A stretch of DNA of 64,000 nt, from assembly GCF_965228995.1 (NCBI RefSeq), contig NZ_OZ245852.1, positions 2,205,493-2,269,492 on the forward strand, read 5' to 3'. Under the pieces are notes generated by a model, which ran no database searches, had not been told where the DNA came from, and worked only from the letters and a program-made list of their open reading frames with translations. The first letter of the stretch is position 1. The number at the start of each line of letters is the position of its first letter. Made by a program: the position numbers and the translations under genes. Positions 4,208 through 34,663 of this stretch are shown piece by piece. Origin of the DNA: Novosphingobium sp. Its GTDB lineage: Bacteria; Pseudomonadota; Alphaproteobacteria; Sphingomonadales; Sphingomonadaceae.

Positions 4208-4445
4208 GCTCAAGCGTCGATATAAGCAGCAAGTTCTTCGGGACTGCCGGTGGGAAACGCCGCCTGCAGGAAATCGGGAAACGCCCTGACGCGCACACTG
4301 AGCAACCGGCGGGTGGGATAGAGCGCCCACAAGACCGCCGGGGCACTTTCCGCTTCTCCCCACAGCGCCAGCCGGCACTGTTTTACGCCGGTGGCGGAGT
4401 TGGGGGCTATACGGACTATCCGGTCATTTGACCTGGCAGGGATCG
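4208..4445 (-). pseudogene. possible 3' remnant of a truncated gene at the left edge of the TPS island
   Basis: A minus-strand frame has no start codon. It reads about 78 protein-like codons (..AESAPAVLWALYPTRRLLSVRVRAFPDFLQAAFPTGSPEELAAYIDA*) bounded upstream by in-frame stops, convergent with the dehydrogenase gene. The family is not recognised. This is weak. Confidence 0.25.
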
Positions 4446-4760
4446 GCGGATCGGAAATGACTTATCCGCCGGGCCCGGCCTAGCTTGATCGGCAGGCGCT
4501 TATGCGCGGGCAAGGCTGGATATGCTGAAATCCATTCCGCCGAGACAATTTAGACACTCATCATACAGTAATAATGCCCGGCACACCGTTCTGTTGGCCC
4601 TGATATTGGAGATATCCGAAGGGATATTTCGTTTGCTAAAGCAAACTAACTAAGTGAAAGTACATATCGGGGATCGAATCGTGAATTTTGCCCGAGTTGA
4701 AAGCATTTAGCGGCATTCCCCGCTGACTTTGCCTTTGCCCCGGGACCTTGGGGGCATCAA
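4440..4760 (+). promoter_or_regulatory. AT-rich leader and promoter region of the giant tpsA, containing a 7-2-7 inverted repeat GTTTGCTAAAGCAAAC (4631..4646)
   Basis: This non-coding stretch is visibly AT-rich in a GC-rich background and sits immediately 5' of the 17 kb ORF. It contains a perfect inverted repeat. Confidence 0.5.
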
Positions 4761-7700
4761 ATGACGCGCGGTTCGAGCCTCCATCCGAGGGTCCATCATC
4801 TTTACGCGCGGCTCATGGTCGGCGTTTCTATCACGGCGACCGCGGCGCTTGTGCCCGCGCTTGCCAGAGCGCAGTCAATCGATGTCACTGCATCGGCTGG
4901 CGGCCCCTCGAGCGTCGCCTTGCAAAGCGGAGGCAGCGCGGCTGTCGTCACGACGTCCAGGGTCGTTGACGGAACCGGTTTCAACCACTTCGACCATTTC
5001 AATGTGAACACCGGGCAAAGCGCCACGCTGGTCCTGCCCAAGGGCACGAACAATCTCGTCAATCTGATCCGGGACGCATCGACCATCAACGGTTCGGTGC
5101 GCTCCGTGCTTGGCGCGGTGGGAGGGCAGATCGGCGGCAATGTCTTCCTCGTCGTGCCGAGTGGTCTCATCATCGGAGCGACCGGAAGCATCGACACGGG
5201 CCGTCTCATCGTGCGCGGTTCGCCGGGCCTTTACGCAGGTGACGAGCCGACGACGGCAAACGTCTTCGACGGCGGCCGTGCGGCGAGCGTAGTGATCAAC
5301 GGCCGGATATCGGCCCCCGGCGGCGTCGATATCCACACCGCGTCCCTGACCATGGGCTCGAGCGGACAGATCGAGACCGGAGCAGCAGCGCTGGCGCGCA
5401 TCGGCAACACGCTCGACCTGCGCAACAGCCTTGTCTCGACCCAGGGCCTGCCAAGCGGGCAGGCGATCATTACCACCGCCAGCGGCGGGATCGCCATCGT
5501 GGCGGACAGTGTGACGCTTGCCGGGAAGATCGCCGACAATCCGGCGACGACCGCCAATGAGGCAGAGCCCGGTGCATTGCTGGATGCCCGCCCGGTTGCA
5601 AGTTCGCCTGCGCTGGTCGGCGGGGTAACGCTGCAAGGGCCTGCGCTCAATCTTGGCGGCCAGATCATCGCCTGGGACGGGACCGCCTCCGGCCCGGCTG
5701 GCGATATCACCATGACCGCCTCGGACAGCGAGACTTATGGCGGGCTCTTTGCCGCTCAGGTCCCGTACTTCGGCATGCCCAAATCCAATGCCGGGATCAG
5801 CATCGGCGGGGTCATCAGGGGCGGCACCATCGCGATCAGCGCCTCGGCCTCGAGCAGCACCAAACTCGATGATGCGTCCAAGGCCGTTGCCGCACTCGAT
5901 ACGCTCGCCGGAAAGCTCAGTTCCGTCGCGCTCGGCAAGCTGACCGGCAAGGCCGGCCTCGGCATCGGGGCCTTCGTCTCGCTGGCAAGCGCCAATGCCG
6001 CGATCAGCGTGGGTGCCGGGGCCAGCATCACCGCCGCGCGCGATCTCAGCCTGACGGCGGGATCTGCGGCATCGAGCGTCTCGAAGGCATCGGCCAAATC
6101 CGGCGGAACGAGTGCCGGCGGCCTCGCCATTGCGGTGTCGGTGGCGCAGACCACCTCGAACGCAGCGATCACGGTCGGCACTGCGTCAGGCGGCGCTACT
6201 CTTTCGGCGGGCGGTGCGCTGACGATCGGCGCCTCCAGCGATCCGCGCGCCGACGTGCGGGTCAGGGTCGCCTCGAGCGGCAGTGCCGTGGCAGCGGCGG
6301 TTGCGTACAACGAAGTCAATTCCGATGCCGGGGTCACCGTGGCCAAGGGATCGGTGCTCGATGGCACGGCGATTGGCATTTCCGCCAAGACCATCCAGGG
6401 CGACAGCGGCGCTGGCATCCTCACCAGCGCGACCGGCTCGACTTACGACACGAGCCCGGGCGGCGGCGTTGCCGCGGTGACCGAGGAGACGATCCGCAGC
6501 CATGTCAACGTGGCCGGAACGGTCGGCAGCGCGCGCACCGCGACTGTTGCGATCGCGGCCAATACCACGACCCTGTTCAACAAGACGTCCGCGACCACGA
6601 CGGCCGCAACCGGGACCGATACCAGCGGAACGATCCCGACAAGCAAGGCCTCGCTGACCGACCTCATCGGCAATCTTCTGCGGCTTTCAACCGATGACCC
6701 CGCCAAGCCCAAGGTCGGCACGATCGGCACCTCGGCCAATCCCGCCAGCCGCGCGACGGCCTCGGTCGCCGTGCTGCAGGCCGATGAATCGGCCACCGCG
6801 CAGATAACCGGCTCGATCACCGCCACCGGCAAAGTCAGCGTTGGCGGGGTCGTGAGCGACAAGGATGTGCGCAACAACGCACAGGCCAGCACCGCGGCCT
6901 CGCTCGCGGTGAACGGAGCCGCCACTTCCGTATCCGGGGCCGCGGCATGGGGGACGTTTACCTACACCGGGACCGCGGACATCGGCGGCACGGTCAAGGC
7001 CGGCTCGCTCAGCGTGAGTTCGCTGGTGGATCGCCCGGTCGGCCTTGTCGACAACATCGGGACATTGGTCGATCAGGCGGGCACGCTCAACACGCCGGAC
7101 AACTTCAACTCCATCCTCGCCGACCTTTCCTTCGCGAAGGATGTGGTCGCCACCTTGCCGAGTATCCTTGCGCCCAAGTCGGGCCTGTTCGGATCCTATG
7201 CCGGTGCCAGCGGCGATAGCGACAGTTCGGGCAAGGCCGCGATCGGGGGCTCGATCGCCTATGCCCGTATCGATTCAAACAGCCGTGCGTGGATCGATCC
7301 GGCGAGCCAGATCACCATTGCCGGACCGCAGGCCGATGCCTCGACGATTGATGCCGAAACCAACATCGCCCTGCTGAGCATCTCGGGTCCCAAGCTGTTT
7401 GGCACCAAGAGCGGCGGCGCTGCCGGCGGCGGTGCGATCACTTACAATACGATCAATCCGGTCACCCTGGCCGGGATCGGGGATGGGGCGGTCTTCACCG
7501 CACCGGACAAGGCGCTTTCGGTCATTGCCAATGCTGCCATCGATGCACTCACGCTCGCGCCAGTGGCGGGGCGCGGCAAGAGCACCACGCTGAGCGGCGC
7601 TTTCGCGGTCAACCAGATCGAAGGCGCGACCCGGGCCGTTATCTCGAACACCGCCCGGCTCGCCATCGGCGCGGGCGCGCTGCGTCTATCCGCTGCGACT

Positions 7701-10700
7701 GACGAGCAGGTCTGGACCATCGCGGGCACGCTGGCATGGAACAAGGCTGATGGCAGCGCCGGTTCGTCCGATACCTCGGTCGGGATCGCTGGCGCGCTCA
7801 ATTACGTATCCTTGACGACGCAGGCCACCGTCGGCCCCGCGCACGATCTCTTCGATCCCGCATCGCCCGCAGTTGCTGCGGCGGCTTCCGCCGGGATCAC
7901 CTCGGGCAATGTCAGCATCACCGCGCAGACCACCGGTTCGATCAATGCCATCTCGGTCGCCGGGGTGCGCGATAACAGCAATGCGGAAACCACGCCCGAT
8001 TTCCTGAGCAACACCAATGCTCGGTTCAACAAGTTCAAGGGTGCGATCGGGACGGGCATTGTCGATTTCCTGACCGACATGACCACCGGCCTGCTCGCCA
8101 GCTTCGGCGCCAGCACATATTCGCAGCAGCTCAAGACCAATTACGCCTCGCGCAAGGATGCCGGAACAGCCGATGCCGTGACCGCGGGCGATCAGGCCGC
8201 CAAGCCGCCCGCACCGACGGATGGCTGGGGCGTGGCGGGCTCTGCAAGCGTCAACCTCACCGCGCTTGTCACCAAGGTGGATATCGGGCTCGGCCGCTTC
8301 ACCCGGTCTGCCAATGCCACCTCGGCGAGCTTCCTCGCGAAGGCGAGCGAGCGTGCAGATACGCTGGCGATCACTGGCGGTGCGGCGCTTGCCAACGGGG
8401 TCAAATACAGCGGCAGTTCGACGCTGATCGCGGGGGCCTACGGCGTCACCTACAGCAAGAACGCGACAACCCTCACCATCGATCACAGCATTATCGCCGG
8501 GTTCGACGCGATCTCGGCCAATGCCGCAATGAACGGCCTGCGCATCGGTGCAGGCCTTGCGCTTGCGGCGGACACGACCAAGACGCCCGACGGGCGAACC
8601 TTCGCGTCATCCGCCTCGCTGATCATTGCCAACGACAGCGTCGGCGCGAACCTCACCGATGATAGTGTGACCGGCACCGGCAAGGGCGATGTCTCTGTCC
8701 TCGCCTTCGACGGGCGCACGCTCGGCGCGGGTGCTGGCGGGCTTTCGTGGGGCACGCAGAGCGGCTTCGGTGCAGCGCTGACCGTGCTGATCGACAAGAA
8801 CGCCTCGGGCACGCCGACCAGTGCGCTGCTTGCACGCACGCCGGTGGCCGGCTTCGTCAATCTCTCCGTCCAGGCGCTCGATGCAGCGCGGCTTGTCGGC
8901 ATCGCCGCAGCAGGGGCGATCACCACCGGCACGGGCCAGGGCGGCAACGGATTGGCTGCCAGCATCTCGTTCAACGATGTCGCGCTTGGCACCAAGGCGC
9001 TTATCGATCTGGGCGATAACGGCGTGGGATCGGTCAACGTGACCGGCGCGCTTACCGTTGCGGCGGGCGAATATGCTGCAACCAATCCGTCCGCCCAGTT
9101 CGCGCGCATCAGCTGCACCATAAATTGCGATGCCGGCGAGAGCCTGCTGAGCAGTTTCAACATTGCATCGACCACGTTCGGCGCGGATGATCCCGTGCAG
9201 GCGAGCGATCTGCCTTCCGGCGCGGCGATCATCTCGGTGGCGATCCCGGTGGCAGCGGCACGCGGTTCGGCAGGGGGGCTTGGCCTTTCGGTCAACCTCA
9301 TCACCAACGACCGCACCGCCGCGATCATCGGCGGGGCAGCCGCAACCGGATCGACGATCAAGGCAGGCTCGCTCGCGCTGCGGACCGTGGACCGCGCGAC
9401 GATCCTTTCGCTCGCGGCGGGCTTTGCCGGCAGCGACAATGGCAGCGCGGTCATGGGCTCTCTGGCCTATAACCAGATCGGCGGAACCGCGACTGCCAGC
9501 CTTACCCGCTCGGCCGGGGCGACGAAGGGCCCGGTGGTGGAGATCGGCAGCGCTGGTGGCCCTGCGGCGCCGGCTTCGGTCACCGCGCTGGCTGACGGGC
9601 GAATCTACAGCCTCTCGGGCGCCATCGGCAGTGCCAAGAACGCCGCCGGGGGCCTTGCTGTCAGCGTCAATGCGATTGCGCGCCAGGGCTCCGGACCGGC
9701 AGCGGGGATCAACGCGCTGGTGAGCGGTGTGACCCTGGCCGGAAATCCGTCGCTTGCCGTCAACGCCGCGAGCACCGGAACGATCCTCTCGGGCGCGGTT
9801 GCGGGTGCGCTGGGTACGGGCAATGCGCTCGGCGGCTCGGCCTCGACCAACGCCATCGCCCCGACAATCGCGGCGCGGGCAGACGGACTTGCTTATGCCA
9901 ATGCGGTGACCGGAGACCTTGCCGTCACCGCATCGGACAGCGCCTCGATCCGCAGTCTCGCGCTCGCCGCCGCGCTTTCGACCAACCAGAACTCGCTCGG
10001 CGCCGGCATTTCGGTCAACCGGATCAGCACCAATGTGCTCGCCAGCCTTACGCCCGCGAGTGCGATTTCGGTGCGCAATCTCCTCGTCCAGAGCCAGTCT
10101 GCCGCGACCACGCAGCTTGTCGCGGTGGGGCTTGCCCTTGCCGGCAAGTTCGGCGGGGCTGGCTCGATTGCGGTCAACCAGACCAGCGCCGAAGCCGACG
10201 CACTGCTTACGCTCAATGGCTTCAACGTGAACGCGACCGGCTCGGTCGGAGTGCTGGCGACCCGCGATTCCGCGATTGACGCAGCAGCTGGCGCGGCAGG
10301 ATTTGGCGCCAAGTCGGCGGTTGGTGCAGCGCTTGTTCTCAACGACGTGACGGGCGGTGCGCAGGCACTGGTGAGCGGCACCGGCGGCGCGACTGTCACC
10401 GCGCTCGGCCAGGGCGACGGCCTGACGGTGCGGACGGGTGACCTCACCGAAGCGCTCAAGCAGTTCGATTTGCCGGCGCTCGTCCCCGAATCGACGGGCA
10501 CCACAGGCGCCTCGCGCGCGGCGCTAGGCAAGCTCAAGCCCGCCACAACCGTGGTGCACGGAGTGGCCATCAACGCGAACTCCACGCATGCCACCCGTAC
10601 GCTTGCCATTACCGGGGCGATCGCAGGCAACGGCTTTGCGGCGGCGGTGACCGCGGTTGTGGGCAATGTCGGCGGAACGACACTCGCCAAGGCCAGCGGG

Positions 10701-16700: not shown

Positions 16701-19700
16701 CAGCCGGGGCAATTCACGACCAAGGTCGATGATCTCGTGACCTATGCGGTGGGCGTTGGCGAGACAGGCACGAACACCAGTTCCGACTCCCCGCTCCAGT
16801 ATGATCCGTCCACCCGCGGCGGCGCCTATTTCGTGACGAACGAAACCCGCACGATCACGCGTGAAGTCTCGGTGACCAATGGCACCCAGCTGGACGGTGT
16901 CGACGTCCGCTATGGTGCTGCGAGCCCGTGGAAGTATGGCAACGCGACCCAGCAGCCGCAGGGCGGAACCTTTGTCGATATATCGACGCAGGGTACCGAT
17001 CCAAGGCTGCTGGCCGCGCTAGGCGGCAGCACGCCGGACTTTGTCCAGATGGTCAGCGGCGTCGTTACCGACAAGATCAACGATACCACGCAATTCTCGG
17101 CCGCGCCTGGCCAGAACTATGACGAGAACTTCACCTGGGAGCTTCCCAAGACAATCAACGTCACGCTGACCACTGCGGTGCGCGCGACGTATCCGATCAA
17201 CATCCTGTTCGATCAGGGACACGGCCAGAGCGGGGTCAATGTCGTGTCCACGCAGGGCAGCGTCGTAGTCGGCGGGCGGATTACCTACGGCGGCGGCGAT
17301 GTTGCGATCACTTCGGCGCAGAGCATCCTCGGCACCCCGAGCGGGCTGGTTTACGCGCACGGCTTCCGTGGCTGTGCGAACTCGACCTCGCCTTCGAATT
17401 GCGAGTCCAATGGCCTGACCGGCTCGATCGGTTCGGCTGACCAGCCACTCGCCGTGACAGTCGCCGGCTCGACATTGGGCGATCCGGTTACAGGCCTCGG
17501 CAAGTCTCTGGGCGGAACCGTGAGCGCGCAGACGAGCAATGGCGATGTCTATCTGAAGCTCAATTCGTCGACCGCGACTGCAGGCGATCTTGATGCCGTG
17601 GTGCTTGCGGCCGTCGGCGCCAGCGGCAAGGTGGTCATCACTTCGGGCACAGGGCTGGTCGGGCTTGACGGGCTTGGCCCGAATATCGCGGCAAAGGAAA
17701 TCGATCTCACTTCCGCCGGATCGGTCGGCGGGTTCAATCCCTATTCGGGCAGTGGCAGCGATCCCCTGCTCAAACCCGCGCTCACCGTCGAGGTGGGCGA
17801 GGGCGGCCTGTGGATCAACGCGGGCGGTGATATCACCGTGCAGGGTGCGATGCACCACGATGCAACGGACCTTGCCAATGTTCTGCGGCTTGGTGCCATC
17901 GTATCGACCCGCGATGTGCAAATCCGCGCGCCCGGCTCAATCGTTGCGCTCGATACAACGACGATCGTCAACCAGGACAAGCTCGCGCGTTTCCTTGCAG
18001 CGGCACAGGCGCTCCAACTTGCGCCGAGCGCCAGTTGCAGCGGCGCGGCCTGCAGCGGGACCGATCCGGCGCGGCTCGCCTCGATCACCGACGCACTGCG
18101 CAATCAGGCCCGCACCGCCTATGACACGATCATTCGTTCGGCCGGCCTGCCCACCAGCGAGGCCACCGATATCGCGGCGCGGATCGACAAGCTCAACGCA
18201 CTTTCCGCGGCCGGCGTCGCCATCGGGCGGGACGGGACGCTCGTTTATGACCCGCTGAAGGATACCGGCAAGACGGCGGCGGCCTTTGCTGCCACGCTCA
18301 CCGGGCGCAGCGGACTCAGCACTGCCGACGTAACGAGTGCGCTGCAGACATATGCCAACAGCGTGATCGCGCTTGTCGGCACCCGCCTTCCAAACCTTTC
18401 GGGCAGCGCAGACAAGGCAGCGGCCATATCCGCACTGGTGCAGGCGCAGGGCCGGTCGGCGGCAGAGGCCGATGCGCTTGGCAAGCTGCAACTGGTCGAT
18501 CAGTTGCGCAGCCAGGGCGTCCAGATCGATGCGAGCGGCAAGGTCACGCTCTCAGCGACCGCCACGGTCGCACCGGGCAGCGCGCTCGCCGCTTTGGCGG
18601 TAAGTGCGCTGCAATCGCAGACCAACGCGCTCAAGCCCGCGGCTGGCGCGACTGCGATCACCCCCATTGCCCAGCCGACTCCGGCAGACGTCCAGCGCGG
18701 TCTTCAGGCCTACGTCGATAGCCTCACCACCAGAATAAAGCCGCTGCTTGGCGGTACGCTGCCCACGCTCGCCGGGATTTCGACCGATGCTGCGCAGCTT
18801 GCCTTCATCGACAGCAAGGTGAGCGCCGGCAGCTTCGCGGCCTACGCAGGCGCGCAGACCGCCGATGCGAAAGCCGTCCTGCTGCAGGAATTCGGTGCGC
18901 TTCCGCCTTCGCGCACGAGCATCGATACGCTGGCCTTTGCGCCGGCCTTCCTTGCCGCGCGCACCGACGGGGCGACCTGGCAGCAGACGCAGCTTGATTT
19001 CCAGGTACCCTCGACTGCGTTCGTCCCCGTCGCCGATACCCAGTTCGAGACGCGCAAGGCGGTCATCACCGCGCGCAGCCTTACATTGGTTGCTGGCAAT
19101 TCGATCGGCAACTTCGAGGCACCCAAAGCTTTCCGCTTTACCAGCGCGGGTCTAGTCGATGCGGCTGGCAAGCCGATCACCGATCCGCTTCAGAAGCAGC
19201 TTGCTGCGGCCTATCTCGCCTCTGCCGGACCCGGCGATCTTGTTGCCAGCGTCACCGGCTCGCCGGCCACGCAGGTCACCTTCATCAGCCGTCATGACCA
19301 GCCTTTGCCGCTCGACGTAAGCGGCGTGGTCAATGCCTTTGCCGCAACCAACTACGTCTCGCGCAGCACCACCTGGACCGCCGCTAATGCAGACCAGCTT
19401 TCGGGCGACATCTTCCTGACCGATGTCGGCACGATGACCATCGGCTCGATCGTCAGCCTCAAGCCGGTGACCGGTGCGCGGCGAAACGATTGCAACAGCA
19501 ATCCCGCCGTGCCGCTTTCGGGCTGCGATAGCCGCATCCGCCTTACCGCCAATGCCATCACCGGTGTGACCCAGGGTGCCGTGCAGCTTACTGGCCGAAC
19601 GTTCGTGAACGGCAGTCTGTCGCGCCAGAACGTCACGGACCCCGCTGGCCGTGCTGTGATCATGGGCGGGCTGATCCGGCTCGAAGCCTCGAACGGAAAT

Positions 19701-22019
19701 CTGCAATCGGCGGATGGCAGCGCGATCGGAGTTGATGCGCAGTCGCTCGAAGTGGTGCGTGCAGCGGGCAATGCGCTGCTGTTCAAGCGCGCACCGGCGA
19801 CCATTGGCTCAAGCGATTTCAGTGCAGGGCTGGCCTATATGAATGGCCAGGATCTCACTGTCGGCGATGTGTTTGCGGGCCGCACTTTCGCGCTCGACAA
19901 TCCCTTGGGCTCGCTGCTCGTGGGGGCGGTTCCCTACAGCCTTGCCAGCGAGAACCGCAACGGACGGATCGTTGCCGGGCTGGTGCGACTGCGCGCGGCG
20001 GGCGACATTGGCGGGACCGGGATCACCGCAGCGGGGCTGCCTGCGCGCTTTGACATCCAGACTCCGCAGCTCGACATTCTGGCCGCAGGGTATGACTTTG
20101 CTGCCGCGCCGACAGCCATGCCTGCGGCGACCTTCAGCTTCGATGGCGGCGGCCAGCATATCTTTACCGCGGCCGAGCTGCTCGGCACGGCGGTGATCAG
20201 TCCTGTGACGCCCGCCTACATCAAGATTACCCAGCTGCCGACCGGCGCCAGCCTTGTACTCAACGGGCCCGGCGGCTTGCGTTTCGTCAAGAACGGCTCT
20301 TCGATCCCGGTGTCCGCAATCTCGCAGCTGCAGTTCAATGGTTTCAGCGGATTGGGCACCCAGACGATCGGTTTCCAGCTTGTCCTGCCAGCAGGGGCCA
20401 TCGGCACCGGCCCCGCGCCCAATGGACAAGCTGGCGGCTCGGCCTGGCTCGATCTGCGCAGTCCGGTGCGGATTGGCGGCGGAACAAGCTCGCTCATCGG
20501 CGCGCGCGGCAGCATCGATATCGGCAAGGTTGGAGGCAGCACCGGGCTGGTCGATCTCGAAAGCCCGATCACGGTAGGCGGCACCGCCACTATCGTGACC
20601 GCTGGCCCCTTCGCCATCGGGCAAACGGTGACCGTGGGCGCGAGCGGTATTGCAACGCCGGCTTCCTGCGCCACCGATCCCGGCCCGGCAGCATGCCTGA
20701 TGGACTTGTCGAGGCTCAACCTCACCGTCGGCGGCGCGTTCAACTTCACCACCGGGCGCACTATCGAGTTCGGAGCGTTGGCTGCTGGCGGCGGCACCGT
20801 GGAATCGACCCAAGGCTCGATAACCATCGACCGGAGCCTCATCGGGAGCGCGAACGCTGCTGCGCCCTTCACGCTGAAGGGCAATACCGGCGTGTTCACC
20901 CACGACATTCTCGGCGGCGCACTTGCGCTTGTCTCGGCCAACGGCAACGTTGATGTCGCAGGCACGATGAAGGCCTCCTCGATCACGATGATGGGCAAGA
21001 CGACTGGTGTCGACGGCGCCATCGACACCAGCAACCTCGTGATCGTGGCAGACGGCGACGTGACGCTCGAGAGCACGGTCACGGCAGACTCGCTGCATGT
21101 GACCGCAACCGGCGATCTCGAACTTTCGCATTCGATCACATTGCGCTCGCCCCCGGGCCATACGGCCTCGGCGCTCGTTGCGGGCGGCGAGGTGGCGCTG
21201 GGCGACAATGTCGTGATCAGCGGAACTTCGGACAGCGTCCTCACGGTCACCGGCGCGAGCGTCGCATTCGCTCCGTCCTCGATTATCCGCGGGATCGATA
21301 CCCGGATCGTGGCGACAGAAGGCGGTGTGCGGCTCGGCACGATCGATGGCGGTGCGTTGGCGGTCCGCGCCCCGGGCGATATCGTGCTGGGAAGGCTCTT
21401 TGCGCGCGGTGCCTCGCTTGTCTCGCTAGACGGAAACATCGATTTTGGCGGTCCGGTGCAGATCGGAGGGCCGGGCGTCCATGCTGCGGCGCTGCGCACG
21501 GCAGCAGGGCTGGGCGCTGACGGAAGCCTTTACGCCCGCGCGCCGGGGTCGATCACGATCGAGGGACCGATGGCCGCAGCCGGAGGGATCACGCTTGCCG
21601 CTGGTTCGATCGTCACCACCGGAGAGGGCTATCTCAGCGATAACCTCAACGCCGGAATGCCGATCGTGCTGCGCGGTGACCGCATCGCAATCAGTTTCCG
21701 GGATCCCGCGCTGGGCGCGCAGCCGCTCAACCTCAATGTCGCCGGCTATACCGCGCCCGCAGCGAGATCGGCACGGTTCTTCTTCGACACGGCTCGCCCG
21801 ATCGATTTCACCACGCTCAAGGTCCTGAACGTGCGCGTCGATGCTGGTGGCACCGTTCGCTACGCCCCGTGGAGCGAGTGCAGCATGCTGCCTGTCGCGG
21901 CCGGTAGCTGGCTCGAAGTCTGGGGCGGGCCTGCAGGGCGCTGCGCCCAGCCACCTGCGCTGGACCCCGTTGAAGCCCGGCCGATCGCGCCGCAACCCTC
22001 CTCCCTTTCGCAGCGGTGA
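4761..22019 (+). CDS. giant two-partner-secretion exoprotein TpsA, filamentous-haemagglutinin-like, 5752 aa
   Basis: One uninterrupted 17.3 kb ORF. It has an extended signal peptide followed by a TPS (haemagglutination-activity) domain: NHFDHFNVNTGQSATLVLPKGTNNLVNLIRDASTINGSV...GNVFLVVPSGLIIGATGSIDTGRLIV. A very long Gly/Ala/Ser/Thr/Val-rich repetitive region (beta-helix-like) follows, then a less repetitive C-terminal third with paired cysteines. A TpsB gene lies immediately downstream. Confidence 0.9.
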   Translation: MTRGSSLHPRVHHLYARLMVGVSITATAALVPALARAQSIDVTASAGGPSSVALQSGGSAAVVTTSRVVDGTGFNHFDHFNVNTGQSATLVLPKGTNNLVNLIRDASTINGSVRSVLGAVGGQIGGNVFLVVPSGLIIGATGSIDTGRLIVRGSPGLYAGDEPTTANVFDGGRAASVVINGRISAPGGVDIHTASLTMGSSGQIETGAAALARIGNTLDLRNSLVSTQGLPSGQAIITTASGGIAIVADSVTLAGKIADNPATTANEAEPGALLDARPVASSPALVGGVTLQGPALNLGGQIIAWDGTASGPAGDITMTASDSETYGGLFAAQVPYFGMPKSNAGISIGGVIRGGTIAISASASSSTKLDDASKAVAALDTLAGKLSSVALGKLTGKAGLGIGAFVSLASANAAISVGAGASITAARDLSLTAGSAASSVSKASAKSGGTSAGGLAIAVSVAQTTSNAAITVGTASGGATLSAGGALTIGASSDPRADVRVRVASSGSAVAAAVAYNEVNSDAGVTVAKGSVLDGTAIGISAKTIQGDSGAGILTSATGSTYDTSPGGGVAAVTEETIRSHVNVAGTVGSARTATVAIAANTTTLFNKTSATTTAATGTDTSGTIPTSKASLTDLIGNLLRLSTDDPAKPKVGTIGTSANPASRATASVAVLQADESATAQITGSITATGKVSVGGVVSDKDVRNNAQASTAASLAVNGAATSVSGAAAWGTFTYTGTADIGGTVKAGSLSVSSLVDRPVGLVDNIGTLVDQAGTLNTPDNFNSILADLSFAKDVVATLPSILAPKSGLFGSYAGASGDSDSSGKAAIGGSIAYARIDSNSRAWIDPASQITIAGPQADASTIDAETNIALLSISGPKLFGTKSGGAAGGGAITYNTINPVTLAGIGDGAVFTAPDKALSVIANAAIDALTLAPVAGRGKSTTLSGAFAVNQIEGATRAVISNTARLAIGAGALRLSAATDEQVWTIAGTLAWNKADGSAGSSDTSVGIAGALNYVSLTTQATVGPAHDLFDPASPAVAAAASAGITSGNVSITAQTTGSINAISVAGVRDNSNAETTPDFLSNTNARFNKFKGAIGTGIVDFLTDMTTGLLASFGASTYSQQLKTNYASRKDAGTADAVTAGDQAAKPPAPTDGWGVAGSASVNLTALVTKVDIGLGRFTRSANATSASFLAKASERADTLAITGGAALANGVKYSGSSTLIAGAYGVTYSKNATTLTIDHSIIAGFDAISANAAMNGLRIGAGLALAADTTKTPDGRTFASSASLIIANDSVGANLTDDSVTGTGKGDVSVLAFDGRTLGAGAGGLSWGTQSGFGAALTVLIDKNASGTPTSALLARTPVAGFVNLSVQALDAARLVGIAAAGAITTGTGQGGNGLAASISFNDVALGTKALIDLGDNGVGSVNVTGALTVAAGEYAATNPSAQFARISCTINCDAGESLLSSFNIASTTFGADDPVQASDLPSGAAIISVAIPVAAARGSAGGLGLSVNLITNDRTAAIIGGAAATGSTIKAGSLALRTVDRATILSLAAGFAGSDNGSAVMGSLAYNQIGGTATASLTRSAGATKGPVVEIGSAGGPAAPASVTALADGRIYSLSGAIGSAKNAAGGLAVSVNAIARQGSGPAAGINALVSGVTLAGNPSLAVNAASTGTILSGAVAGALGTGNALGGSASTNAIAPTIAARADGLAYANAVTGDLAVTASDSASIRSLALAAALSTNQNSLGAGISVNRISTNVLASLTPASAISVRNLLVQSQSAATTQLVAVGLALAGKFGGAGSIAVNQTSAEADALLTLNGFNVNATGSVGVLATRDSAIDAAAGAAGFGAKSAVGAALVLNDVTGGAQALVSGTGGATVTALGQGDGLTVRTGDLTEALKQFDLPALVPESTGTTGASRAALGKLKPATTVVHGVAINANSTHATRTLAITGAIAGNGFAAAVTAVVGNVGGTTLAKASGIQFKVGNVAAAKPVAEPVALDIRAGTAIDTSSFAGAVAGSNGVGVGAPVVSDGLTAQTSALLSGGGVTTTGSVTVRAASRQAATALVLAGAVGGNVGAAVSGVSPRFAAVTTAAVDDPDTVSILGSGGLAINADSDSRGFATFGSLALGKAAGAATVVVVTDDDQTTARYKSAKRIAVTAPAISVSANGRFDARVAGGSVAAGVAGALVGNGVGVVNRQVIAAQASGLNYTNAAGKVSVTAAQIANFQPVIGQVAVTASLASGAGALGAVVVLSQAKVDATLIDPLVTAGTVSVNAYGASGVDALQLGFAGGLSGSIGANVTYIGIGEVADTGALFSKSGGNDANSQVAANAGSSGSGNGNLAMLGGGSGETTAQQAAAAGMDQLSGPASTHLVTGADGTRDATGALQTSSRDQFMQVGAVTSAPSADDGAASRVRAQVLSATAGQASQVKVGALSVVSSANLVSKSSNFQGAASLASGSAAIAITRNAANSIARIGAGVIAAGLAGSSTLDVRADTGQDASRLTGGITNPSKAAEALVVSGSVGALTANIGLADIKLQTVSLAESLGAVGFGTTTIKASDSSDAAANVYGVAAGATGALNVALANVTKQGTVGAQLAGKSFSAITRVIAAGGGSTSAYALAASGGYFFDGNAAVALATDQRTIDARVGEGTVVASNTLLVDASATPQISAQSDGIAVSGGLAMGGSVALATADATILARIGEGGRITCVTLLAPGCTLTVRAALLQPASGPNVLASARGSAGGALAAANASIATASDTADVAAIVGADLNGQPGAPTVLAGPSITISASRTLAQTARADGLTIAGLLSVGVQAAKARSSGTVDAALLNVDGSQQVLVDAVTGRPLVDASGAFVRNPDATVTASSLDLNTAITRAGAGALGAGVAADAATDSSGIVTTTIAPDAAFAFRAGKLTATATAAADYHAEADATQASVVGGSGSTTENSVNTTAHVVIGKAGKGSTPGTNSVLRASSFVIGAQNIVGQTGNDGGFSKGAGGGAATGAAAKVTNQVTQHAAVDVLAGTTLRQYGDASQNLLAMQINAGITTARSASTALQVGGVMLLPFARTDSTFNADSKVAIGTNALLRADGGIGIGTTAQQTIADSSAVQIYGLAGIGGGSSSTTANTSGLVTVGDGATIESLSDVLLTPGIGADGLSRDSISVSDQTDVFNQTVVPITVDHDAHATANLSNRLIVGKAVVRSARDVTFSALAQGVTATAVGTGHNPYLSIFSKSDSGGTADMATSGAIALNGSQITAGFLANRKIGITDTNDGGWQVVEADFDGTDKLTRTITADVSGSITGDTLTSGAGLTTAAPDRDRLGLAQFSSRTVSALDVVGQQITSLTAQVQAAGIVVPSDPNLLPAGDAHDSLASKLAAAAAQSALVAKLSAAFDTRAALTASGNTTTAGIMVDNLLAAGGSFAINTDSITGSGSRVVANASPTIAINSTSARNLLLGNLFIPAKPSGAVTYGGQAGETNLSTIATVQSSGIGDTVEGLIDVTNGAPFGGKSDLLVFGPIANVGGTFKALVNNGNFSQFGDVQVGKYDVTVPNGLFNVSTDGAFTKGVPINLYYGHVGLTLNDPQSSGCAGGSGEGCKANANDLSLFVQSAIAEQAVANYLVDHPVLTNGQPLTVGSGIDGLRSALKQLFNLSDAQVADPIRLLFEEGFVPAGSQQYYHVNSAGQLIAVATTFGIAKWGTANHSSGATIFASCSAVCEVESNDRDLSNGFSGQEFLFQTHSGETVRFNYPDNDGLGSYYSLGSAFVDPVITRQINANSQLGPGDNRTISANQVRINAKFVNISGSIVAGPEKQRSVDISARFTDATGMLIQDSMALDPNVHVGSVSAPLQLTNVATGNIGARYVVSGLVRNAQNQVISTTGYIQLDDVDAGAGGVIDITGRILNTNPLGGGELRVLDGFANISIINNAPVDLHLGTINAGTDVSGLIKLTDLKGDGSVETTQYRDVPGQGVTMSHVTSMPVAGQPGQFTTKVDDLVTYAVGVGETGTNTSSDSPLQYDPSTRGGAYFVTNETRTITREVSVTNGTQLDGVDVRYGAASPWKYGNATQQPQGGTFVDISTQGTDPRLLAALGGSTPDFVQMVSGVVTDKINDTTQFSAAPGQNYDENFTWELPKTINVTLTTAVRATYPINILFDQGHGQSGVNVVSTQGSVVVGGRITYGGGDVAITSAQSILGTPSGLVYAHGFRGCANSTSPSNCESNGLTGSIGSADQPLAVTVAGSTLGDPVTGLGKSLGGTVSAQTSNGDVYLKLNSSTATAGDLDAVVLAAVGASGKVVITSGTGLVGLDGLGPNIAAKEIDLTSAGSVGGFNPYSGSGSDPLLKPALTVEVGEGGLWINAGGDITVQGAMHHDATDLANVLRLGAIVSTRDVQIRAPGSIVALDTTTIVNQDKLARFLAAAQALQLAPSASCSGAACSGTDPARLASITDALRNQARTAYDTIIRSAGLPTSEATDIAARIDKLNALSAAGVAIGRDGTLVYDPLKDTGKTAAAFAATLTGRSGLSTADVTSALQTYANSVIALVGTRLPNLSGSADKAAAISALVQAQGRSAAEADALGKLQLVDQLRSQGVQIDASGKVTLSATATVAPGSALAALAVSALQSQTNALKPAAGATAITPIAQPTPADVQRGLQAYVDSLTTRIKPLLGGTLPTLAGISTDAAQLAFIDSKVSAGSFAAYAGAQTADAKAVLLQEFGALPPSRTSIDTLAFAPAFLAARTDGATWQQTQLDFQVPSTAFVPVADTQFETRKAVITARSLTLVAGNSIGNFEAPKAFRFTSAGLVDAAGKPITDPLQKQLAAAYLASAGPGDLVASVTGSPATQVTFISRHDQPLPLDVSGVVNAFAATNYVSRSTTWTAANADQLSGDIFLTDVGTMTIGSIVSLKPVTGARRNDCNSNPAVPLSGCDSRIRLTANAITGVTQGAVQLTGRTFVNGSLSRQNVTDPAGRAVIMGGLIRLEASNGNLQSADGSAIGVDAQSLEVVRAAGNALLFKRAPATIGSSDFSAGLAYMNGQDLTVGDVFAGRTFALDNPLGSLLVGAVPYSLASENRNGRIVAGLVRLRAAGDIGGTGITAAGLPARFDIQTPQLDILAAGYDFAAAPTAMPAATFSFDGGGQHIFTAAELLGTAVISPVTPAYIKITQLPTGASLVLNGPGGLRFVKNGSSIPVSAISQLQFNGFSGLGTQTIGFQLVLPAGAIGTGPAPNGQAGGSAWLDLRSPVRIGGGTSSLIGARGSIDIGKVGGSTGLVDLESPITVGGTATIVTAGPFAIGQTVTVGASGIATPASCATDPGPAACLMDLSRLNLTVGGAFNFTTGRTIEFGALAAGGGTVESTQGSITIDRSLIGSANAAAPFTLKGNTGVFTHDILGGALALVSANGNVDVAGTMKASSITMMGKTTGVDGAIDTSNLVIVADGDVTLESTVTADSLHVTATGDLELSHSITLRSPPGHTASALVAGGEVALGDNVVISGTSDSVLTVTGASVAFAPSSIIRGIDTRIVATEGGVRLGTIDGGALAVRAPGDIVLGRLFARGASLVSLDGNIDFGGPVQIGGPGVHAAALRTAAGLGADGSLYARAPGSITIEGPMAAAGGITLAAGSIVTTGEGYLSDNLNAGMPIVLRGDRIAISFRDPALGAQPLNLNVAGYTAPAARSARFFFDTARPIDFTTLKVLNVRVDAGGTVRYAPWSECSMLPVAAGSWLEVWGGPAGRCAQPPALDPVEARPIAPQPSSLSQR

Positions 22020-23662
22020 AACTCATGCCTTTCCGTCCTAGCTGCGCTTTTGCGGCCATTGTTCTCATCGCCCTCGCTCCGCTCCCGGAAAACGTGCGGG
22101 CGGCGGCTCCGGTGCTTGCCCCCGGTGTCGATCCAGGCCTGATCAACGAGAGCCTCAGGCGCCAGTTCGAGCTTGATCGCCCGGTCGCCCCTCCGCAGCC
22201 GAGCGTCAGCGTGGATGCCGCGCCCCCCGCAGAGCCCAGCACCCGCACCTCCCTGCGCTTTGCGCTCAAGACCATCCAGTTCGATCAGAGCCACTATTTC
22301 GGCCCGGACACGCTCGCCGCGCTCGCACGTCCGCTGGAGGGGCGCGAAGTCGGGATCGATGAGCTTCAGGCGCTCGTTGCGCGGATCAATGCGCTTTATA
22401 CGGCGCGGGGCCTCGCCACAGCGCGTGCGGTCCTCGCTCCGCAAGCAGTCGAGGGCGGGATCGTGAAGATCCGCCTCGTCGAAGGACGGCTCGGCGCTAT
22501 TACGGTCACTGGCGGCAGTGCGCGCAGCCAGCGCCGGGTGCGCGGGGTGATTGCGCTGCGACCGGGCGATCTTGCCGATCCGCGCGATCTCGAGGCGCGG
22601 CTGCGCCAGTTCAACCGCGAAAACGATGGCCACCTGCGCGCTGGGCTGACAGCAGGCCAGGGCCTTGGCCAGACGGATCTCGAGCTGCAGCTGATCGAAC
22701 CGCCCCGGCTTGGCCTTGAGGTGTTTGCCGACAACAACGGCTACCGCTCGACCGGCATGTGGGAGGAAGGCGCGATCATCCGGGCGTACCGCGTGCTGGG
22801 CACGGCTGACCGGGCTTCGCTCGTTGCGGTGCGCTCGCCGGGTGTGAAGTCCGTTTCCGGGGCGTGGTCTGCTCCGATTGGTACAGGCACGCGCTTCGGC
22901 CTCGCCGCCTCTTACGGCGAAACGACCATCCGGCAGAGCACTTCCAATCCGCTCTCGATTGCCGGCCGCTCAAACACCGTCAGCGGCGACCTCGCGTTTG
23001 CCCTGGCCAATCGCAACAGCTTTGCGCTCCATCTCGATACCACCTTGAGCTTCACCCAGTCCGACACCCGCATCAGCGGCGAACGAGTGGTCGACAACCA
23101 GGTAACGACGGCCGGAGCCGCGCTCTTGTTCGATATCTTCACGCCCCACCTCGTCGGCTCGGGCCATATCGAGGCCAATTTCAGTCACGTCGAGGAACGG
23201 GTCTCGGGCAGCGTGGTCGAACCGCTCATCCTGCGCGGGGATTTGCAGCTCAGCCGCCCCGTGGGAAGCCACGGCAACTACATCCGCTTCCGCGGCGATG
23301 GCCAGTGGACCGGAGCGGGGGCGCTGCCCGGCCTGCTTCAATACCAGATCGGCGGCGCACGCTCGGCCCGCGCGCTCGATCCGGGCACCGCGGCGGGGGA
23401 CAGCGGGTTTACCGTGGCTCTGGAAACAGGACACGCGCAGCCGATCGGACGTTGCGCGATCGATGTCGGGTTTTTCCTCGATCACGCTGAAGCTTATGCC
23501 GCTGGTCAGCCAGCCGAACGCGCGACCGATATCGGCACCTCGCTCACCTTTTCGCTCAACAACCGCATCAGCATTCGCGGACAATATGCCTTGGCGGTTG
23601 ATCATTCCGGACCCGGCGTGATGCCAAGGCGGGGATACCTCTCGGTCTCGGCGCGTTTCTAG
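22016..23662 (+). CDS. TpsB outer-membrane transporter (ShlB/FhaC/HecB family; POTRA plus 16-strand barrel)
   Basis: 548 aa with a signal peptide (MKLMPFRPSCAFAAIVLIALAPL). The POTRA-like region reads LKTIQFDQSHYFGPDTLAALARPLEGREVGIDELQALVARINALYTARGLATARAVLAPQAVEGGIVKIRLVEGRLGAITVTG. The C-terminal barrel ends ...LSVSARF. Its start overlaps the tpsA stop (GTGA), or it uses the ATG at 22025. Confidence 0.9.
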   Translation: MKLMPFRPSCAFAAIVLIALAPLPENVRAAAPVLAPGVDPGLINESLRRQFELDRPVAPPQPSVSVDAAPPAEPSTRTSLRFALKTIQFDQSHYFGPDTLAALARPLEGREVGIDELQALVARINALYTARGLATARAVLAPQAVEGGIVKIRLVEGRLGAITVTGGSARSQRRVRGVIALRPGDLADPRDLEARLRQFNRENDGHLRAGLTAGQGLGQTDLELQLIEPPRLGLEVFADNNGYRSTGMWEEGAIIRAYRVLGTADRASLVAVRSPGVKSVSGAWSAPIGTGTRFGLAASYGETTIRQSTSNPLSIAGRSNTVSGDLAFALANRNSFALHLDTTLSFTQSDTRISGERVVDNQVTTAGAALLFDIFTPHLVGSGHIEANFSHVEERVSGSVVEPLILRGDLQLSRPVGSHGNYIRFRGDGQWTGAGALPGLLQYQIGGARSARALDPGTAAGDSGFTVALETGHAQPIGRCAIDVGFFLDHAEAYAAGQPAERATDIGTSLTFSLNNRISIRGQYALAVDHSGPGVMPRRGYLSVSARF

Positions 23663-23707
23663 GCGCTTTGGCCAAACTGGGTACCGTCAGGGGATTGCAC
23701 CAGAGCG

Positions 23708-24184
23708 GTGAACTTCGGGTCGATCGAGGAGTGCACGCTCGAAAGTTTTCGATTCGTGAATTCGGCCATGTCCGAGGGCACATTCCTCGGGTGCCATACC
23801 GCGATCCCGCTGATGAAAGCTGGCGGCGGCGGCTCAATCATCAACATGGGATCGATTGCCGGGATAAAGGGCGTCAGCCAGATTCCCGGCTATTGCGCTG
23901 CCAAGGGCGCCATCCACGCCCTGACGCGCTGCGTTGCGGTCTATTGCCGCGAGCAAGGCAACGGCATCCGCTGCAACACGATCGTGGCCGGTTCGATCCG
24001 CACCCCGATGACCATGCGCGCGCTCTCGGAGATGCCCGAGGACAGCCCGAGCTTCGAGGAACTGGAAGTCCACGGTCAGGGCCAGCCCTCTGACGTGGCC
24101 AACATGGTCCTCTACCTGGCCTCGGACGAGGCGCGCCATGTCAACGGGGCGTCGCTGGTCATCGATAATGGGGAGACGGCCTGA
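23708..24184 (+). pseudogene. N-terminally truncated short-chain dehydrogenase/reductase (SDR) fragment
   Basis: 158 aa that align to the C-terminal two-thirds of an SDR (NFGSIEECTLESFRFVNSAM...MGSIAGIKGVSQIPGYCAAKGAIHALTRC, with the active-site YxxxK). Compare the intact paralogue at 37991. The Rossmann TGxxxGxG N-terminus is absent. The frame is closed by the tpsB stop codon TAG at 23660. Confidence 0.7.
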
Positions 24185-34660: not shown

Positions 34661-34663
34661 GAA

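What the first reader, a model, noticed from the sequence alone, without database searches (positions are those of the whole stretch)
4208..24184. The TPS locus is bounded by two 5'-truncated gene remnants, an island-like replacement of a divergent promoter region
On the right, the SDR ORF at 23708..24184 lacks its entire Rossmann N-terminus (about 90 aa) and its frame is closed exactly by the tpsB stop codon. On the left, a minus-strand frame (4208..4445) reads like the C-terminal 75 codons of a protein with no start and in-frame stops upstream. Both missing 5' ends would point into the 4.45-23.7 kb segment. That segment also begins with an atypically AT-rich 300 bp. Together this suggests the roughly 19 kb tpsAB segment was inserted, or recombined in, at the expense of two divergently transcribed genes.
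Basis: inference. Interest (0 to 1): 0.55.

Follow-up and report, generated by a model that had tools for sequence, protein, structure and literature searches.

The report
Gene stumps flanking a secretion operon
A giant-adhesin secretion operon (tpsAB) in a Novosphingobium chromosome lies between two real gene stumps, and a related species shows the right-hand gene was cut in place, but this looks like ordinary illegitimate recombination in a variable chromosome region rather than a mobile island dropped between two divergent genes.

Summary
Both remnants are real. Window 23708-24184 is the last 158 codons of a 247-aa SDR (93-97% aa identity to full-length orthologues), and homology starts abruptly at 23707. 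Window 4213-4377 (minus strand) is the C-terminal 55 codons of a LysR-type regulator.

Novosphingobium sediminis has the intact SDR in the same place, convergent with the same PepSY_TM/TonB-receptor module. So the SDR was truncated in situ, and recently: dN/dS is 0.02-0.04 and the remnant shows no decay.

The intact SDR is always divergent from a P450 gene (EthD/P450/sulfotransferase cluster), never from a LysR gene. The two stumps were therefore not a divergent pair, and more than a promoter region was lost.

No island hallmarks were found. There is no integrase, tRNA, IS end, target duplication or terminal repeat at the junctions. tpsAB has host-like codon usage, and its closest TpsB relatives (67%) are in other Novosphingobium.

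The flank of the PepSY module differs in all five Novosphingobium lineages examined.

Best reading: an illegitimate-recombination junction (deletion or replacement) in a plastic region, with the LysR stump possibly a separate scar. This is ordinary genome plasticity of low interest. One by-product is that RefSeq annotates the SDR fragment as a normal protein.

The parts
3087..4205 (+). Zn-dependent alcohol dehydrogenase gene (left flank). It forms a conserved divergent pair with the AraC regulator gene at 2066-2974.
   Evidence: Pfam ADH_N/ADH_zinc_N. The AraC-ADH pair is conserved at 55-65% aa in Sphingomonas pruni and others, without a LysR or SDR gene next to it. RefSeq WP_421846403.1.
4210..4377 (-). 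LysR-type regulator remnant: the C-terminal 55 codons plus the TGA stop (4210-4212). It has no start codon and no HTH domain.
   Evidence: It is 66-75% identical to LysR C-termini (consensus ...LWALYPTRRLLSARVSAFLDYL...ELAAY...). It has Pro where all eight aligned homologues have Leu (AFPDFL).
4378..4452 (-). Possible decayed continuation of the LysR remnant. It aligns only if a 12-codon deletion is assumed, and it ends at an in-frame stop at 4453-4455.
   Evidence: The BLASTP alignment extends through it. A profile of this block from homologues does not score it above background in the six-frame translation of the window.
4453..4760 (+). Non-coding AT-rich region upstream of tpsA (GC 0.51 overall, 0.43 over 4520-4720). 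Presumed tpsAB promoter/leader; its origin is unknown.
   Evidence: No Rfam family, no sigma-70 consensus hit, no similarity in plasmids and no repeated copies in the window.
4761..22019 (+). tpsA: a 5752-aa exoprotein with a signal peptide and an N-terminal TPS domain; the remainder has no Pfam domain.
   Evidence: Pfam TPS E = 4.8e-7, 30.4 bits, below the gathering score of 33.5. The motif GFNHFDHFNV...NLVNLIR...S.INGS is present. Residues ~10-370 are 26-39% identical to TPS-domain proteins in metagenomes. No other Pfam family. RefSeq WP_421846405.1, 'beta strand repeat-containing protein'.
22025..23662 (+). tpsB: an Omp85-type transporter (545 aa from the ATG at 22025; stop TAG at 23660-23662).
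   Evidence: Pfam POTRA_2 and ShlB. The exact 545-aa product is RefSeq WP_421846407.1. The closest relatives (67%) are in other Novosphingobium.
23663..23706 (+). 44-bp linker between the tpsB stop and the start of SDR homology. Its origin is unknown, and its right end is the junction.
   Evidence: Alignment to four SDR orthologues shows homology starting at 23707, with at most 1-3 nt of microhomology. No terminator-like site lies between tpsB and the remnant.
23707..24184 (+). 5'-truncated SDR gene (codons 90-247 of 247). It lacks the Rossmann TGxxxGxG and NNAG motifs and retains Ser/YxxxK.
   Evidence: RefSeq annotates it as the ordinary 158-aa protein WP_421846409.1.
24159..25577 (-). PepSY_TM membrane protein gene (native right flank). 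Its last ~15 codons are lineage-specific and are read from the antisense of the SDR 3' end, giving a 26-bp gene overlap.
   Evidence: RefSeq WP_421846411.1.
25580..28389 (-). TonB-dependent receptor gene plus a small DUF2946 gene. Together with PepSY_TM they form a 4.2-kb module that is 84-86% nt identical in related Novosphingobium.

Best explanation
The window is part of a Novosphingobium sp. chromosome. The tpsAB operon sits in a recombination-prone, lineage-variable region next to a conserved DUF2946/TonB-receptor/PepSY_TM module.

RIGHT JUNCTION (shown). The ancestor carried an intact 247-aa SDR gene convergent with PepSY_TM and divergent from a P450 gene (an EthD/P450/sulfotransferase cluster), as N. 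sediminis still does.

RIGHT JUNCTION (inferred). A single illegitimate (non-homologous) recombination event joined the DNA just downstream of tpsB to codon 90 of that SDR. This removed the first 89 SDR codons, its promoter and the P450 cluster. The event was evolutionarily recent, because the stump shows no neutral decay.

IMPORT OR DELETION (unresolved). I cannot tell whether the tpsAB DNA was imported from another Novosphingobium or was already nearby and brought next to the SDR by a deletion. I rate the two about equally.

LEFT STUMP (inferred). The LysR stump is a scar of an illegitimate breakpoint. It may stem from a separate and possibly older event. It is not the former divergent partner of the SDR.

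PRESENT-DAY FUNCTION (inferred). tpsAB is probably transcribed from the AT-rich region at 4.45-4.76 kb. Both stumps are non-functional. The SDR stump may be co-transcribed by read-through from tpsB.
For: - Organism: exact window proteins are RefSeq Novosphingobium sp. entries on a 4,108,413-bp contig.
- Synteny: window 24206-28389 is 84-86% nt identical to N. sediminis (L022) and to L020 and L024. In N. sediminis and in Logan contig L023, PepSY is followed by an intact 247-aa SDR, then a divergent P450, a sulfotransferase, EthD and a TBDR.
- Truncation point: N. sediminis SDR residues 90-247 match window 23708-24181 at 95% aa. Residues 1-89 and the P450 gene have no counterpart in the window.
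- SDR partner: the same SDR/P450 divergent pair is seen in L001-L004 and in GCA_041445565.1.
- Sharp breakpoint: homology starts at 23707 in all comparisons.
- Recent truncation: dN/dS is 0.02-0.04, there are 4 synonymous and 2 nonsynonymous window-specific changes, and no stops or frameshifts.
- No mobile-element marks: cross-junction repeats are no better than shuffles (38-40 of 200 shuffles reach the observed score), junction sequences are unique in the window, the window has no tRNA, and the flanking ORFs scanned hold only enzymes and regulators.
- Host-like tpsAB: GC3 is 0.76-0.78, and RSCU correlates at r = 0.98 (tpsA) and 0.94 (tpsB) with the right-hand genes. The nearest TpsB relatives (67%) are in Novosphingobium.
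- Plastic region: the PepSY 3' neighbour differs in all five lineages examined (truncated SDR plus tpsBA, SDR plus P450 cluster, an MCP, a 1232-aa protein, and 792/631/352-aa proteins). Homology stops a few nt after codons RWLGL in every case.
- Probably not an assembly artefact: the 158-aa stump product is recorded on 2 contigs. A separate 5,848-bp ENA contig carries the TpsA C-terminus and a 98%-identical TpsB piece.
Against: - No close relative with an 'empty' left site was found. ADH orthologues are at most 65% identical, and AKR, AraC and ADH are singleton clusters. The origin of the LysR stump and of the whole left block is therefore unknown, and a single event creating both scars cannot be excluded.
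- The apparent greater decay of the LysR stump may partly reflect the lack of a close orthologue (best 75% over 52 aa).
- The spacer between the SDR stop and the PepSY homology is ~21 nt in the window and ~96 nt in N. sediminis, and the two are barely alignable. Descent of the SDR-PepSY adjacency from one ancestor is parsimonious but not proven.
- The window SDR is closer to orthologues in other contexts (88% nt to L018/L019) than to N. sediminis (83%).
- The rest of the 4.1-Mb chromosome could not be searched for the missing halves.
Confidence: 0.6

Rival explanations
1. One reading: one event inserted a ~19-kb tpsAB island into, and replaced, the shared promoter region of a divergently transcribed LysR/SDR gene pair. 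This clipped both 5' ends.
For: Both stumps are real, and their missing 5' ends face the tpsAB segment. LysR regulators are commonly divergent from their target genes (general knowledge). tpsAB is absent at this site in four related Novosphingobium lineages.
Against: In every contig with a close intact orthologue, the SDR lacks a LysR neighbour. It is divergent from a P450 gene in L001-L004, GCA_041445565.1, L022 and L023, and it follows an amidohydrolase gene in L018/L019. The genome that shares the PepSY-SDR adjacency has the P450 cluster where tpsAB now lies. The two stumps appear to differ in decay. Orthologues of the left-flank AraC-ADH pair never have this LysR or SDR beside them.
Confidence: 0.1
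2. Reciprocal rearrangement (inversion or translocation) within the chromosome. The breakpoints fell inside the SDR and/or LysR genes, and the missing 5' halves, with the P450 cluster, survive elsewhere in the same genome. No DNA was gained or lost.
For: The junction is blunt and lacks mobile-element marks. tpsAB composition is host-like. The region is rearranged differently in each relative.
Against: No SDR 5' part, P450 or LysR 5' part was found anywhere in the 64-kb window. The remainder of the chromosome could not be searched, so this is untested rather than contradicted. No inverted repeats or IS copies that would drive an inversion lie at the junctions. The only IS in the window (39772-41010) has no end copies there.
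Confidence: 0.15
3. A dedicated mobile element (an integrase-type genomic island or an IS/composite transposon) delivered tpsAB, and its hallmarks have since been lost or lie outside the window to the left.
For: The AT-rich 5' region is unusual for this genome. The left block (AKR, TetR, AraC, ADH) consists of singleton clusters with no close orthologues, so the acquired segment could extend beyond the window's left edge. An intact IS3-family element lies 15.6 kb away.
Against: None of the ORFs scanned between 1 and 28.4 kb matched an integrase or transposase domain. The window has no tRNA. There are no terminal inverted or direct repeats at the junctions. No copies of the IS ends lie there. 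Codon usage is host-like. A junction inside an ORF with at most 1-3 nt of microhomology is not what site-specific recombinases or transposases leave.
Confidence: 0.1
4. Assembly artefact: a chimeric join in the genome assembly creates the apparent truncations.
For: None specific. It is only the generic possibility for any abrupt junction.
Against: The 158-aa stump product is recorded on two contigs. An independent 5,848-bp ENA contig carries the identical TpsA C-terminal 350 aa and a 98%-identical TpsB fragment, and its length fits tpsA'-tpsB-SDR'-PepSY-TBDR'. The source contig is a 4.1-Mb chromosome-scale sequence.
Confidence: 0.03

Closest known systems
Illegitimate recombination and homology-facilitated illegitimate recombination (HFIR) producing gene replacement with truncated flanking genes
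   Same: The junction falls inside an ORF with essentially no homology (at most 1-3 nt). Resident DNA is lost and no recombinase or transposase signatures are present. [quoted passage not shown] Here the SDR 3' end and the PepSY module could have been the homologous anchor.
   Different: Neither a donor sequence nor a recipient 'before' state is available, so the anchor, the amount of DNA imported and whether any DNA was imported at all are not shown. HFIR as described integrates small linear DNA molecules (abstract of PMC3240628), whereas this segment is at least 19 kb.
Regions of genomic plasticity (variable segments flanked by conserved genes)
   Same: A conserved module (DUF2946-TBDR-PepSY_TM, 84-86% nt) is followed by a different gene set in each of five Novosphingobium lineages. 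Accessory cargo and gene remnants sit at the border.
   Different: The flank on the other side of the module also varies. The module is therefore not a fixed core anchor in the usual sense, and no tRNA or integrase marks the spot.
Two-partner secretion (type Vb) loci such as FhaB/FhaC, ShlA/ShlB and CdiA/CdiB (the cargo of the segment)
   Same: The TpsB protein has POTRA_2 and the ShlB barrel. The TpsA protein has a signal peptide and an N-terminal TPS domain motif. The two genes are adjacent on the same strand.
   Different: The gene order is A then B. TpsA is very large (5752 aa) with no recognisable Pfam repeats and a sub-threshold TPS score. No immunity-like gene lies between or after the genes, so nothing points to a CDI system. 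TpsB is at most 30% identical to plasmid-borne ShlB/FhaC homologues.
Classical tRNA-associated, integrase-mediated genomic islands
   Same: Accessory cargo that is absent from relatives at this site, with an AT-rich stretch at one end.
   Different: No integrase domain in the ORFs scanned, no tRNA, no flanking direct repeats and no compositional deviation were found.

Membership tests
Two-partner secretion system (type Vb) | TpsB: an Omp85-family transporter with POTRA domain(s) and a ShlB/FhaC beta-barrel | tested here: met
   Pfam POTRA_2 (68 bits) and ShlB (45 bits), both above their gathering scores. RefSeq name ShlB/FhaC/HecB family.
Two-partner secretion system (type Vb) | TpsA: an N-terminal signal peptide followed by a TPS secretion domain | tested here: inconclusive
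   Pfam TPS scores 30.4 bits, below the cut-off of 33.5. Supporting signs are a hydrophobic leader ending ARA/QS, the NxFxxFNV-type motif and 26-39% identity to TPS-domain proteins over residues 10-370.
Two-partner secretion system (type Vb) | tpsA and tpsB adjacent and co-oriented | tested here: met
   The tpsA stop is at 22017-22019 and the tpsB ATG is at 22025, on the same strand.
Integrase-type genomic island | An integrase/recombinase gene at one end | tested here: not met
   The flanking genes are AKR, TetR, AraC, ADH, PepSY_TM and TBDR. The only rve-domain gene is the IS3-family element at 39.8-40.9 kb. DNA to the left of the window was not available.
Integrase-type genomic island | Insertion at a tRNA/tmRNA gene, with flanking direct repeats (att sites) | tested here: not met
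   ARAGORN finds no tRNA or tmRNA in 64 kb. The best direct repeat across the junctions is 12 nt with 1 mismatch, and 38 of 200 shuffles do as well.
Integrase-type genomic island | Base composition or codon usage deviating from the host | tested here: not met
   tpsA/tpsB have GC 0.66 and GC3 0.76-0.78, within the range of the window's genes. RSCU correlates at r = 0.98 and 0.94 with the right-hand genes. Only the 300-bp upstream region is AT-rich.
Integrase-type genomic island | Absent from the same site in related genomes | tested here: met
   N. sediminis, L020, L024 and N. fuchskuhlense have other genes next to PepSY_TM.
IS element / composite transposon | Terminal inverted repeats, a target-site duplication and a transposase | tested here: not met
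   Searches find no inverted repeats or target duplications at the junctions. No copies of the IS3-family ends lie there.
Classical short-chain dehydrogenase/reductase (right remnant) | An N-terminal Rossmann fold with TGxxxGxG and NNAG | tested here: not met
   The remnant starts right after NNAG-V of the orthologues. Profile positions 1-86 are missing. It is a gene fragment, not a functional member of the family.
Classical short-chain dehydrogenase/reductase (right remnant) | The catalytic Ser...YxxxK region | tested here: met
   GSIAG...YCAAK are retained, with 93-97% aa identity to full-length orthologues.
LysR-type transcriptional regulator (left remnant) | An N-terminal HTH_1 DNA-binding domain | tested here: not met
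   No LysR-like sequence in any frame upstream of ~4446. In-frame stop at 4453-4455.
LysR-type transcriptional regulator (left remnant) | A C-terminal LysR_substrate domain | tested here: inconclusive
   Only the last ~33 profile positions match Pfam (176-208 of 209, E = 0.02, below the cut-off). However, 22 homologues at E down to 1e-15, nearly all carrying PF03466, match the stump end to end. It is a fragment of a family member.
Illegitimate / homology-facilitated illegitimate recombination product | A junction without extended homology between the joined sequences | tested here: met
   Aligning the junction with four SDR orthologues shows identity ending at 23707, with at most 1-3 nt of possible microhomology.
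Illegitimate / homology-facilitated illegitimate recombination product | A homologous anchor on one side, shared with the donor DNA | not testable with these tools
   No donor or close tpsAB-bearing relative could be fetched. The context look-ups and collection scans were exhausted.

The most novel reading that the evidence does not exclude
The 3' end of the PepSY_TM gene, just after codons R-W-L-G-L, may be a preferred recombination or integration site in Novosphingobium where unrelated cargo is swapped by a mechanism with no recognisable integrase. Five lineages carry five different neighbours, with homology ending within a few nucleotides of the same point and the protein's C-terminal tail rewritten each time. 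The SDR end of the P450 cluster likewise ends homology exactly at its stop codon in three different contexts. On this reading the tpsAB/SDR' arrangement would be one product of a modular exchange system, not a random scar.
Probability: 0.08. Interest if true: 0.5.

Novelty: new member of a known kind. Interest (0 to 1): 0.2.

Why it matters
The value is mainly in annotation and interpretation.
1. The 158-aa 'SDR family oxidoreductase' WP_421846409.1 is a 5'-truncated pseudogene fragment, and an unannotated LysR fragment lies at 4210-4377.
2. The tpsAB operon of this Novosphingobium is accessory DNA in a plastic chromosomal region. It belongs to a lineage of TPS systems found in the genus (67% TpsB relatives).
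3. The case shows that two facing gene stumps need not be former neighbours. Comparative synteny showed that the SDR's original divergent partner was a P450 gene.

No new mechanism or system is implied.

Tried and rejected
- Target-site duplications or terminal inverted repeats across the two junctions: best matches were 9-12 nt, no better than shuffles.
- Repeated copies of the junction sequences in the window or in the fetched loci: none.
- tRNA/tmRNA: none in the window.
- Rfam families in the tpsA upstream region: none.
- Promoter and terminator consensus scans at both junctions: nothing informative.
- Plasmid collection: no near match to window 1-25000. Only module-level distant matches (AKR-TetR, AraC-ADH) were found. 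The upstream region gave no match. TpsB is at most 30% identical to plasmid homologues.
- Search for an empty left site with the ADH protein in 185,579 species genomes: the best hit was 65% identical and none had a LysR or SDR beside it.
- Search for close tpsA relatives in JGI metagenomes: only 26-39% TPS-domain relatives were found, so the ends of a putative island could not be defined.
- Contexts of the short LysR hits P0002 and P0016: unrelated and uninformative.
- Exact look-ups of ADH and of the 548-aa TpsB found nothing. For TpsB the start codon was wrong (the recorded product is 545 aa). ADH is in the protein collection but has no gene position on record.
- tblastx of loci against the window was too noisy to use.
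- Extension of the LysR remnant beyond 4378: suggestive in BLASTP but not significant with a block profile.
- TAG read-through producing a TpsB-SDR fusion was rejected, because the same-frame coincidence is expected about one time in four.

Full report
LAYOUT. The window has about 65% GC. Exact protein look-ups show it comes from a Novosphingobium sp. chromosome: a 4,108,413-bp contig with RefSeq proteins WP_421846397 to WP_421846411 across the region. From left to right the genes are:
- an aldo/keto reductase (220-1296, minus strand);
- a TetR regulator (1367-1999, plus);
- an AraC regulator (2066-2974, minus);
- a Zn-dependent alcohol dehydrogenase (3087-4205, plus);
- the left remnant;
- a non-coding AT-rich stretch;
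- tpsA (4761-22019, 5752 aa) and tpsB (22025-23662, 545 aa);
- the right remnant (23708-24184);
- PepSY_TM (24159-25577, minus), a TonB-dependent receptor (25580-27904, minus) and a small DUF2946 gene.

TpsB has POTRA_2 and ShlB domains. TpsA has a signal-peptide-like leader and an NxFxxFNV-type TPS motif, but its Pfam TPS score is below threshold and no other family matches. So this is a two-partner secretion locus with an unusually large, otherwise unannotatable exoprotein.

THE RIGHT REMNANT. The ORF 23708-24184 matches SDR profiles only from position 87 onward. It is 93-97% identical in protein to many full-length 247-aa SDRs. At DNA level, homology to seven such genes starts at 23707-23708 and ends at the stop codon. 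The missing 89 residues carry the TGxxxGxG and NNAG motifs, so the product cannot bind its cofactor. The frame is open back to 23663 and is closed by the tpsB TAG. That is true, but it is a coincidence I estimate at about 1 in 4. RefSeq annotates the fragment as a normal 158-aa protein.

THE LEFT REMNANT. The minus-strand frame ending in TGA at 4210-4212 is a genuine LysR-type C-terminus. It gave 22 hits down to E = 1e-15 in 5.8 billion proteins, nearly all carrying PF03466. A weak Pfam match falls at the very end of LysR_substrate. Secure homology covers 55 codons (4213-4377, 66-75% identity). The next 23 codons align only if a 12-codon deletion is assumed, and they are not significant by themselves. 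Upstream there is an in-frame stop, no LysR-like sequence in any frame, and no usable start codon. A position that is Leu in all eight aligned homologues is Pro here.

THE AT-RICH STRETCH. GC is 0.43 over 4520-4720. This is one of only two such regions in the 64-kb window.

THE KEY COMPARISON. PepSY_TM has 88-89% identical orthologues in N. sediminis and in other Novosphingobium genomes and metagenome contigs. The module DUF2946-TBDR-PepSY_TM (window 24206-28389) is 84-86% nt identical in N. sediminis (L022), L020 and L024, and the same three genes are present in N. fuchskuhlense.

In N. sediminis and in Logan contig L023, PepSY_TM is followed, convergently, by an intact 247-aa SDR. Residues 90-247 of that SDR match the window remnant at 95%. 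That SDR is divergently transcribed from a P450 gene, which is followed by sulfotransferase, EthD and TonB-receptor genes. The same SDR/P450 divergent pair occurs in four further contigs. One more context (L018/L019) has an amidohydrolase gene upstream. A LysR gene is never next to this SDR.

Neither the SDR 5' part nor the P450 gene occurs anywhere in the window. So the SDR was truncated in place. What was lost was its 5' end, its promoter and the P450 cluster, not a promoter shared with the LysR gene.

AGE OF THE SCARS. The SDR stump has dN/dS of 0.02-0.04 against its orthologues, the same as orthologue-versus-orthologue pairs. It has 4 synonymous and 2 nonsynonymous private changes and no stops or frameshifts. 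The truncation is therefore recent relative to a dS of 0.6 or more to the nearest sampled orthologue. The LysR stump looks more worn (possible 36-bp deletion, Leu-to-Pro change). Without a close orthologue this is only suggestive.

IS IT AN ISLAND? No integrase or transposase domain was found in the flanking ORFs scanned. The window has no tRNA. Direct or inverted repeats across the junctions are no better than chance. The junction sequences are not repeated elsewhere. The one intact IS in the window is an IS3-family element at 39772-41010 with perfect 16-bp inverted repeats, and it has no end copies near tpsAB.

GC, GC3 and codon usage of tpsA and tpsB are indistinguishable from the neighbouring genes. 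The nearest TpsB relatives (67%) are in other Novosphingobium, the next is at 47%, and the rest are at or below 41%. Plasmid homologues are at most 30% identical. TPS-domain relatives in JGI metagenomes are at most 39% identical. The right junction has at most 1-3 nt of microhomology.

All of this fits illegitimate recombination rather than a site-specific or transpositional insertion.

A PLASTIC NEIGHBOURHOOD. The gene set next to the PepSY_TM 3' end differs in each of the five lineages examined:
- the window (SDR' plus tpsBA);
- N. sediminis (SDR plus the P450 cluster);
- L020 (a chemoreceptor);
- L024 (a 1232-aa protein);
- N. fuchskuhlense (792/631/352-aa proteins).

Homology ends a few nucleotides after codons RWLGL in every case, and the C-terminal tails differ. 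In the window the tail is read from the antisense of the SDR 3' end, giving a 26-bp gene overlap. The other flank of the module also varies. The AraC-ADH and AKR-TetR pairs on the left occur as independent two-gene modules in distant taxa. They are singleton clusters here, so whether the left block is native cannot be told.

CONCLUSION. There is a real replacement or deletion scar at the SDR. However, the two stumps were not a divergent pair, no island hallmarks exist, and one event is not required.

The best explanation (confidence about 0.6) is an illegitimate-recombination junction that placed the 3' flank of a genus-typical tpsAB operon against codon 90 of the SDR and removed the P450 cluster. 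Whether tpsAB DNA was imported or merely brought adjacent by deletion is unresolved. The LysR stump may be a separate scar.

An assembly artefact is unlikely. The stump product is recorded on two contigs, and an independent 5,848-bp ENA contig carries the TpsA C-terminus and a TpsB fragment. That contig could not be fetched.

This is ordinary genome plasticity. The practical outcome is a corrected annotation and a clearer picture of the locus.

Noticed in passing
window 23708-24184: RefSeq lists the 5'-truncated SDR fragment as an ordinary 158-aa protein (WP_421846409.1, 'SDR family oxidoreductase'). It lacks the cofactor-binding Rossmann motifs and should be a pseudogene. The exact product is recorded on two contigs.
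   Followed up: yes
window 24159-24210: The PepSY_TM gene overlaps the SDR 3' end by 26 bp. Its last ~15 codons (PATNGPKVRPSPHYR*) are lineage-specific. In five Novosphingobium genomes, homology stops just after codons RWLGL, and each genome has a different tail and a different neighbour.
   Followed up: partly
window 39772-41010: An intact IS3-family insertion sequence (rve/HTH_21 transposase ORF at 39798-40868, minus strand) with perfect 16-bp terminal inverted repeats TGACGTGCTCCCCTGA. Parts of it are 80-85% identical to L018/L019, contigs that also carry a close SDR orthologue.
   Followed up: partly
window 4761-22019: TpsA is 5752 aa. It has no Pfam family beyond a sub-threshold TPS domain, and no immunity-like gene lies nearby. 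At 90% identity its cluster holds only itself and one 350-aa metagenome fragment. It is a poorly characterised giant beta-strand-repeat exoprotein lineage.
   Followed up: partly
window 34061-34460 and 34619-37794: The second AT-rich spot of the window (the minimum, GC 0.425 over 200 bp) lies upstream of two consecutive GH25 lysozyme-like genes (358 and 700 aa). It follows a 333-aa ORF (33153-34154, minus strand) with no Pfam family.
   Followed up: no
window 220-4205: AKR-TetR and AraC-ADH are two regulator-enzyme pairs that recur as units in distant taxa (Burkholderia, Palleronia, Polymorphobacter and Sphingomonas pruni; 64-73% nt or 55-65% aa). All three proteins looked up (AKR, AraC, ADH) are singleton clusters at 90% identity, so the left flank may itself be accessory DNA.
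   Followed up: partly
L001-L004, L022, L023 (loci, not the window): A conserved EthD / P450 / SDR / sulfotransferase / glyoxalase-like / P450 / SDR cluster occurs in several sphingomonad contigs in different surroundings. Homology to the window always ends exactly at the terminal SDR stop codon. In L002 and L004, transposase fragments follow directly.
   Followed up: partly
(LysR hits): All 22 database hits to the LysR stump are themselves short (74-145 aa) LysR C-terminal ORFs, some on long contigs (70 kb and 164 kb). This may be an effect of the word-index search or of fragmented assemblies. It was not resolved.
   Followed up: partly
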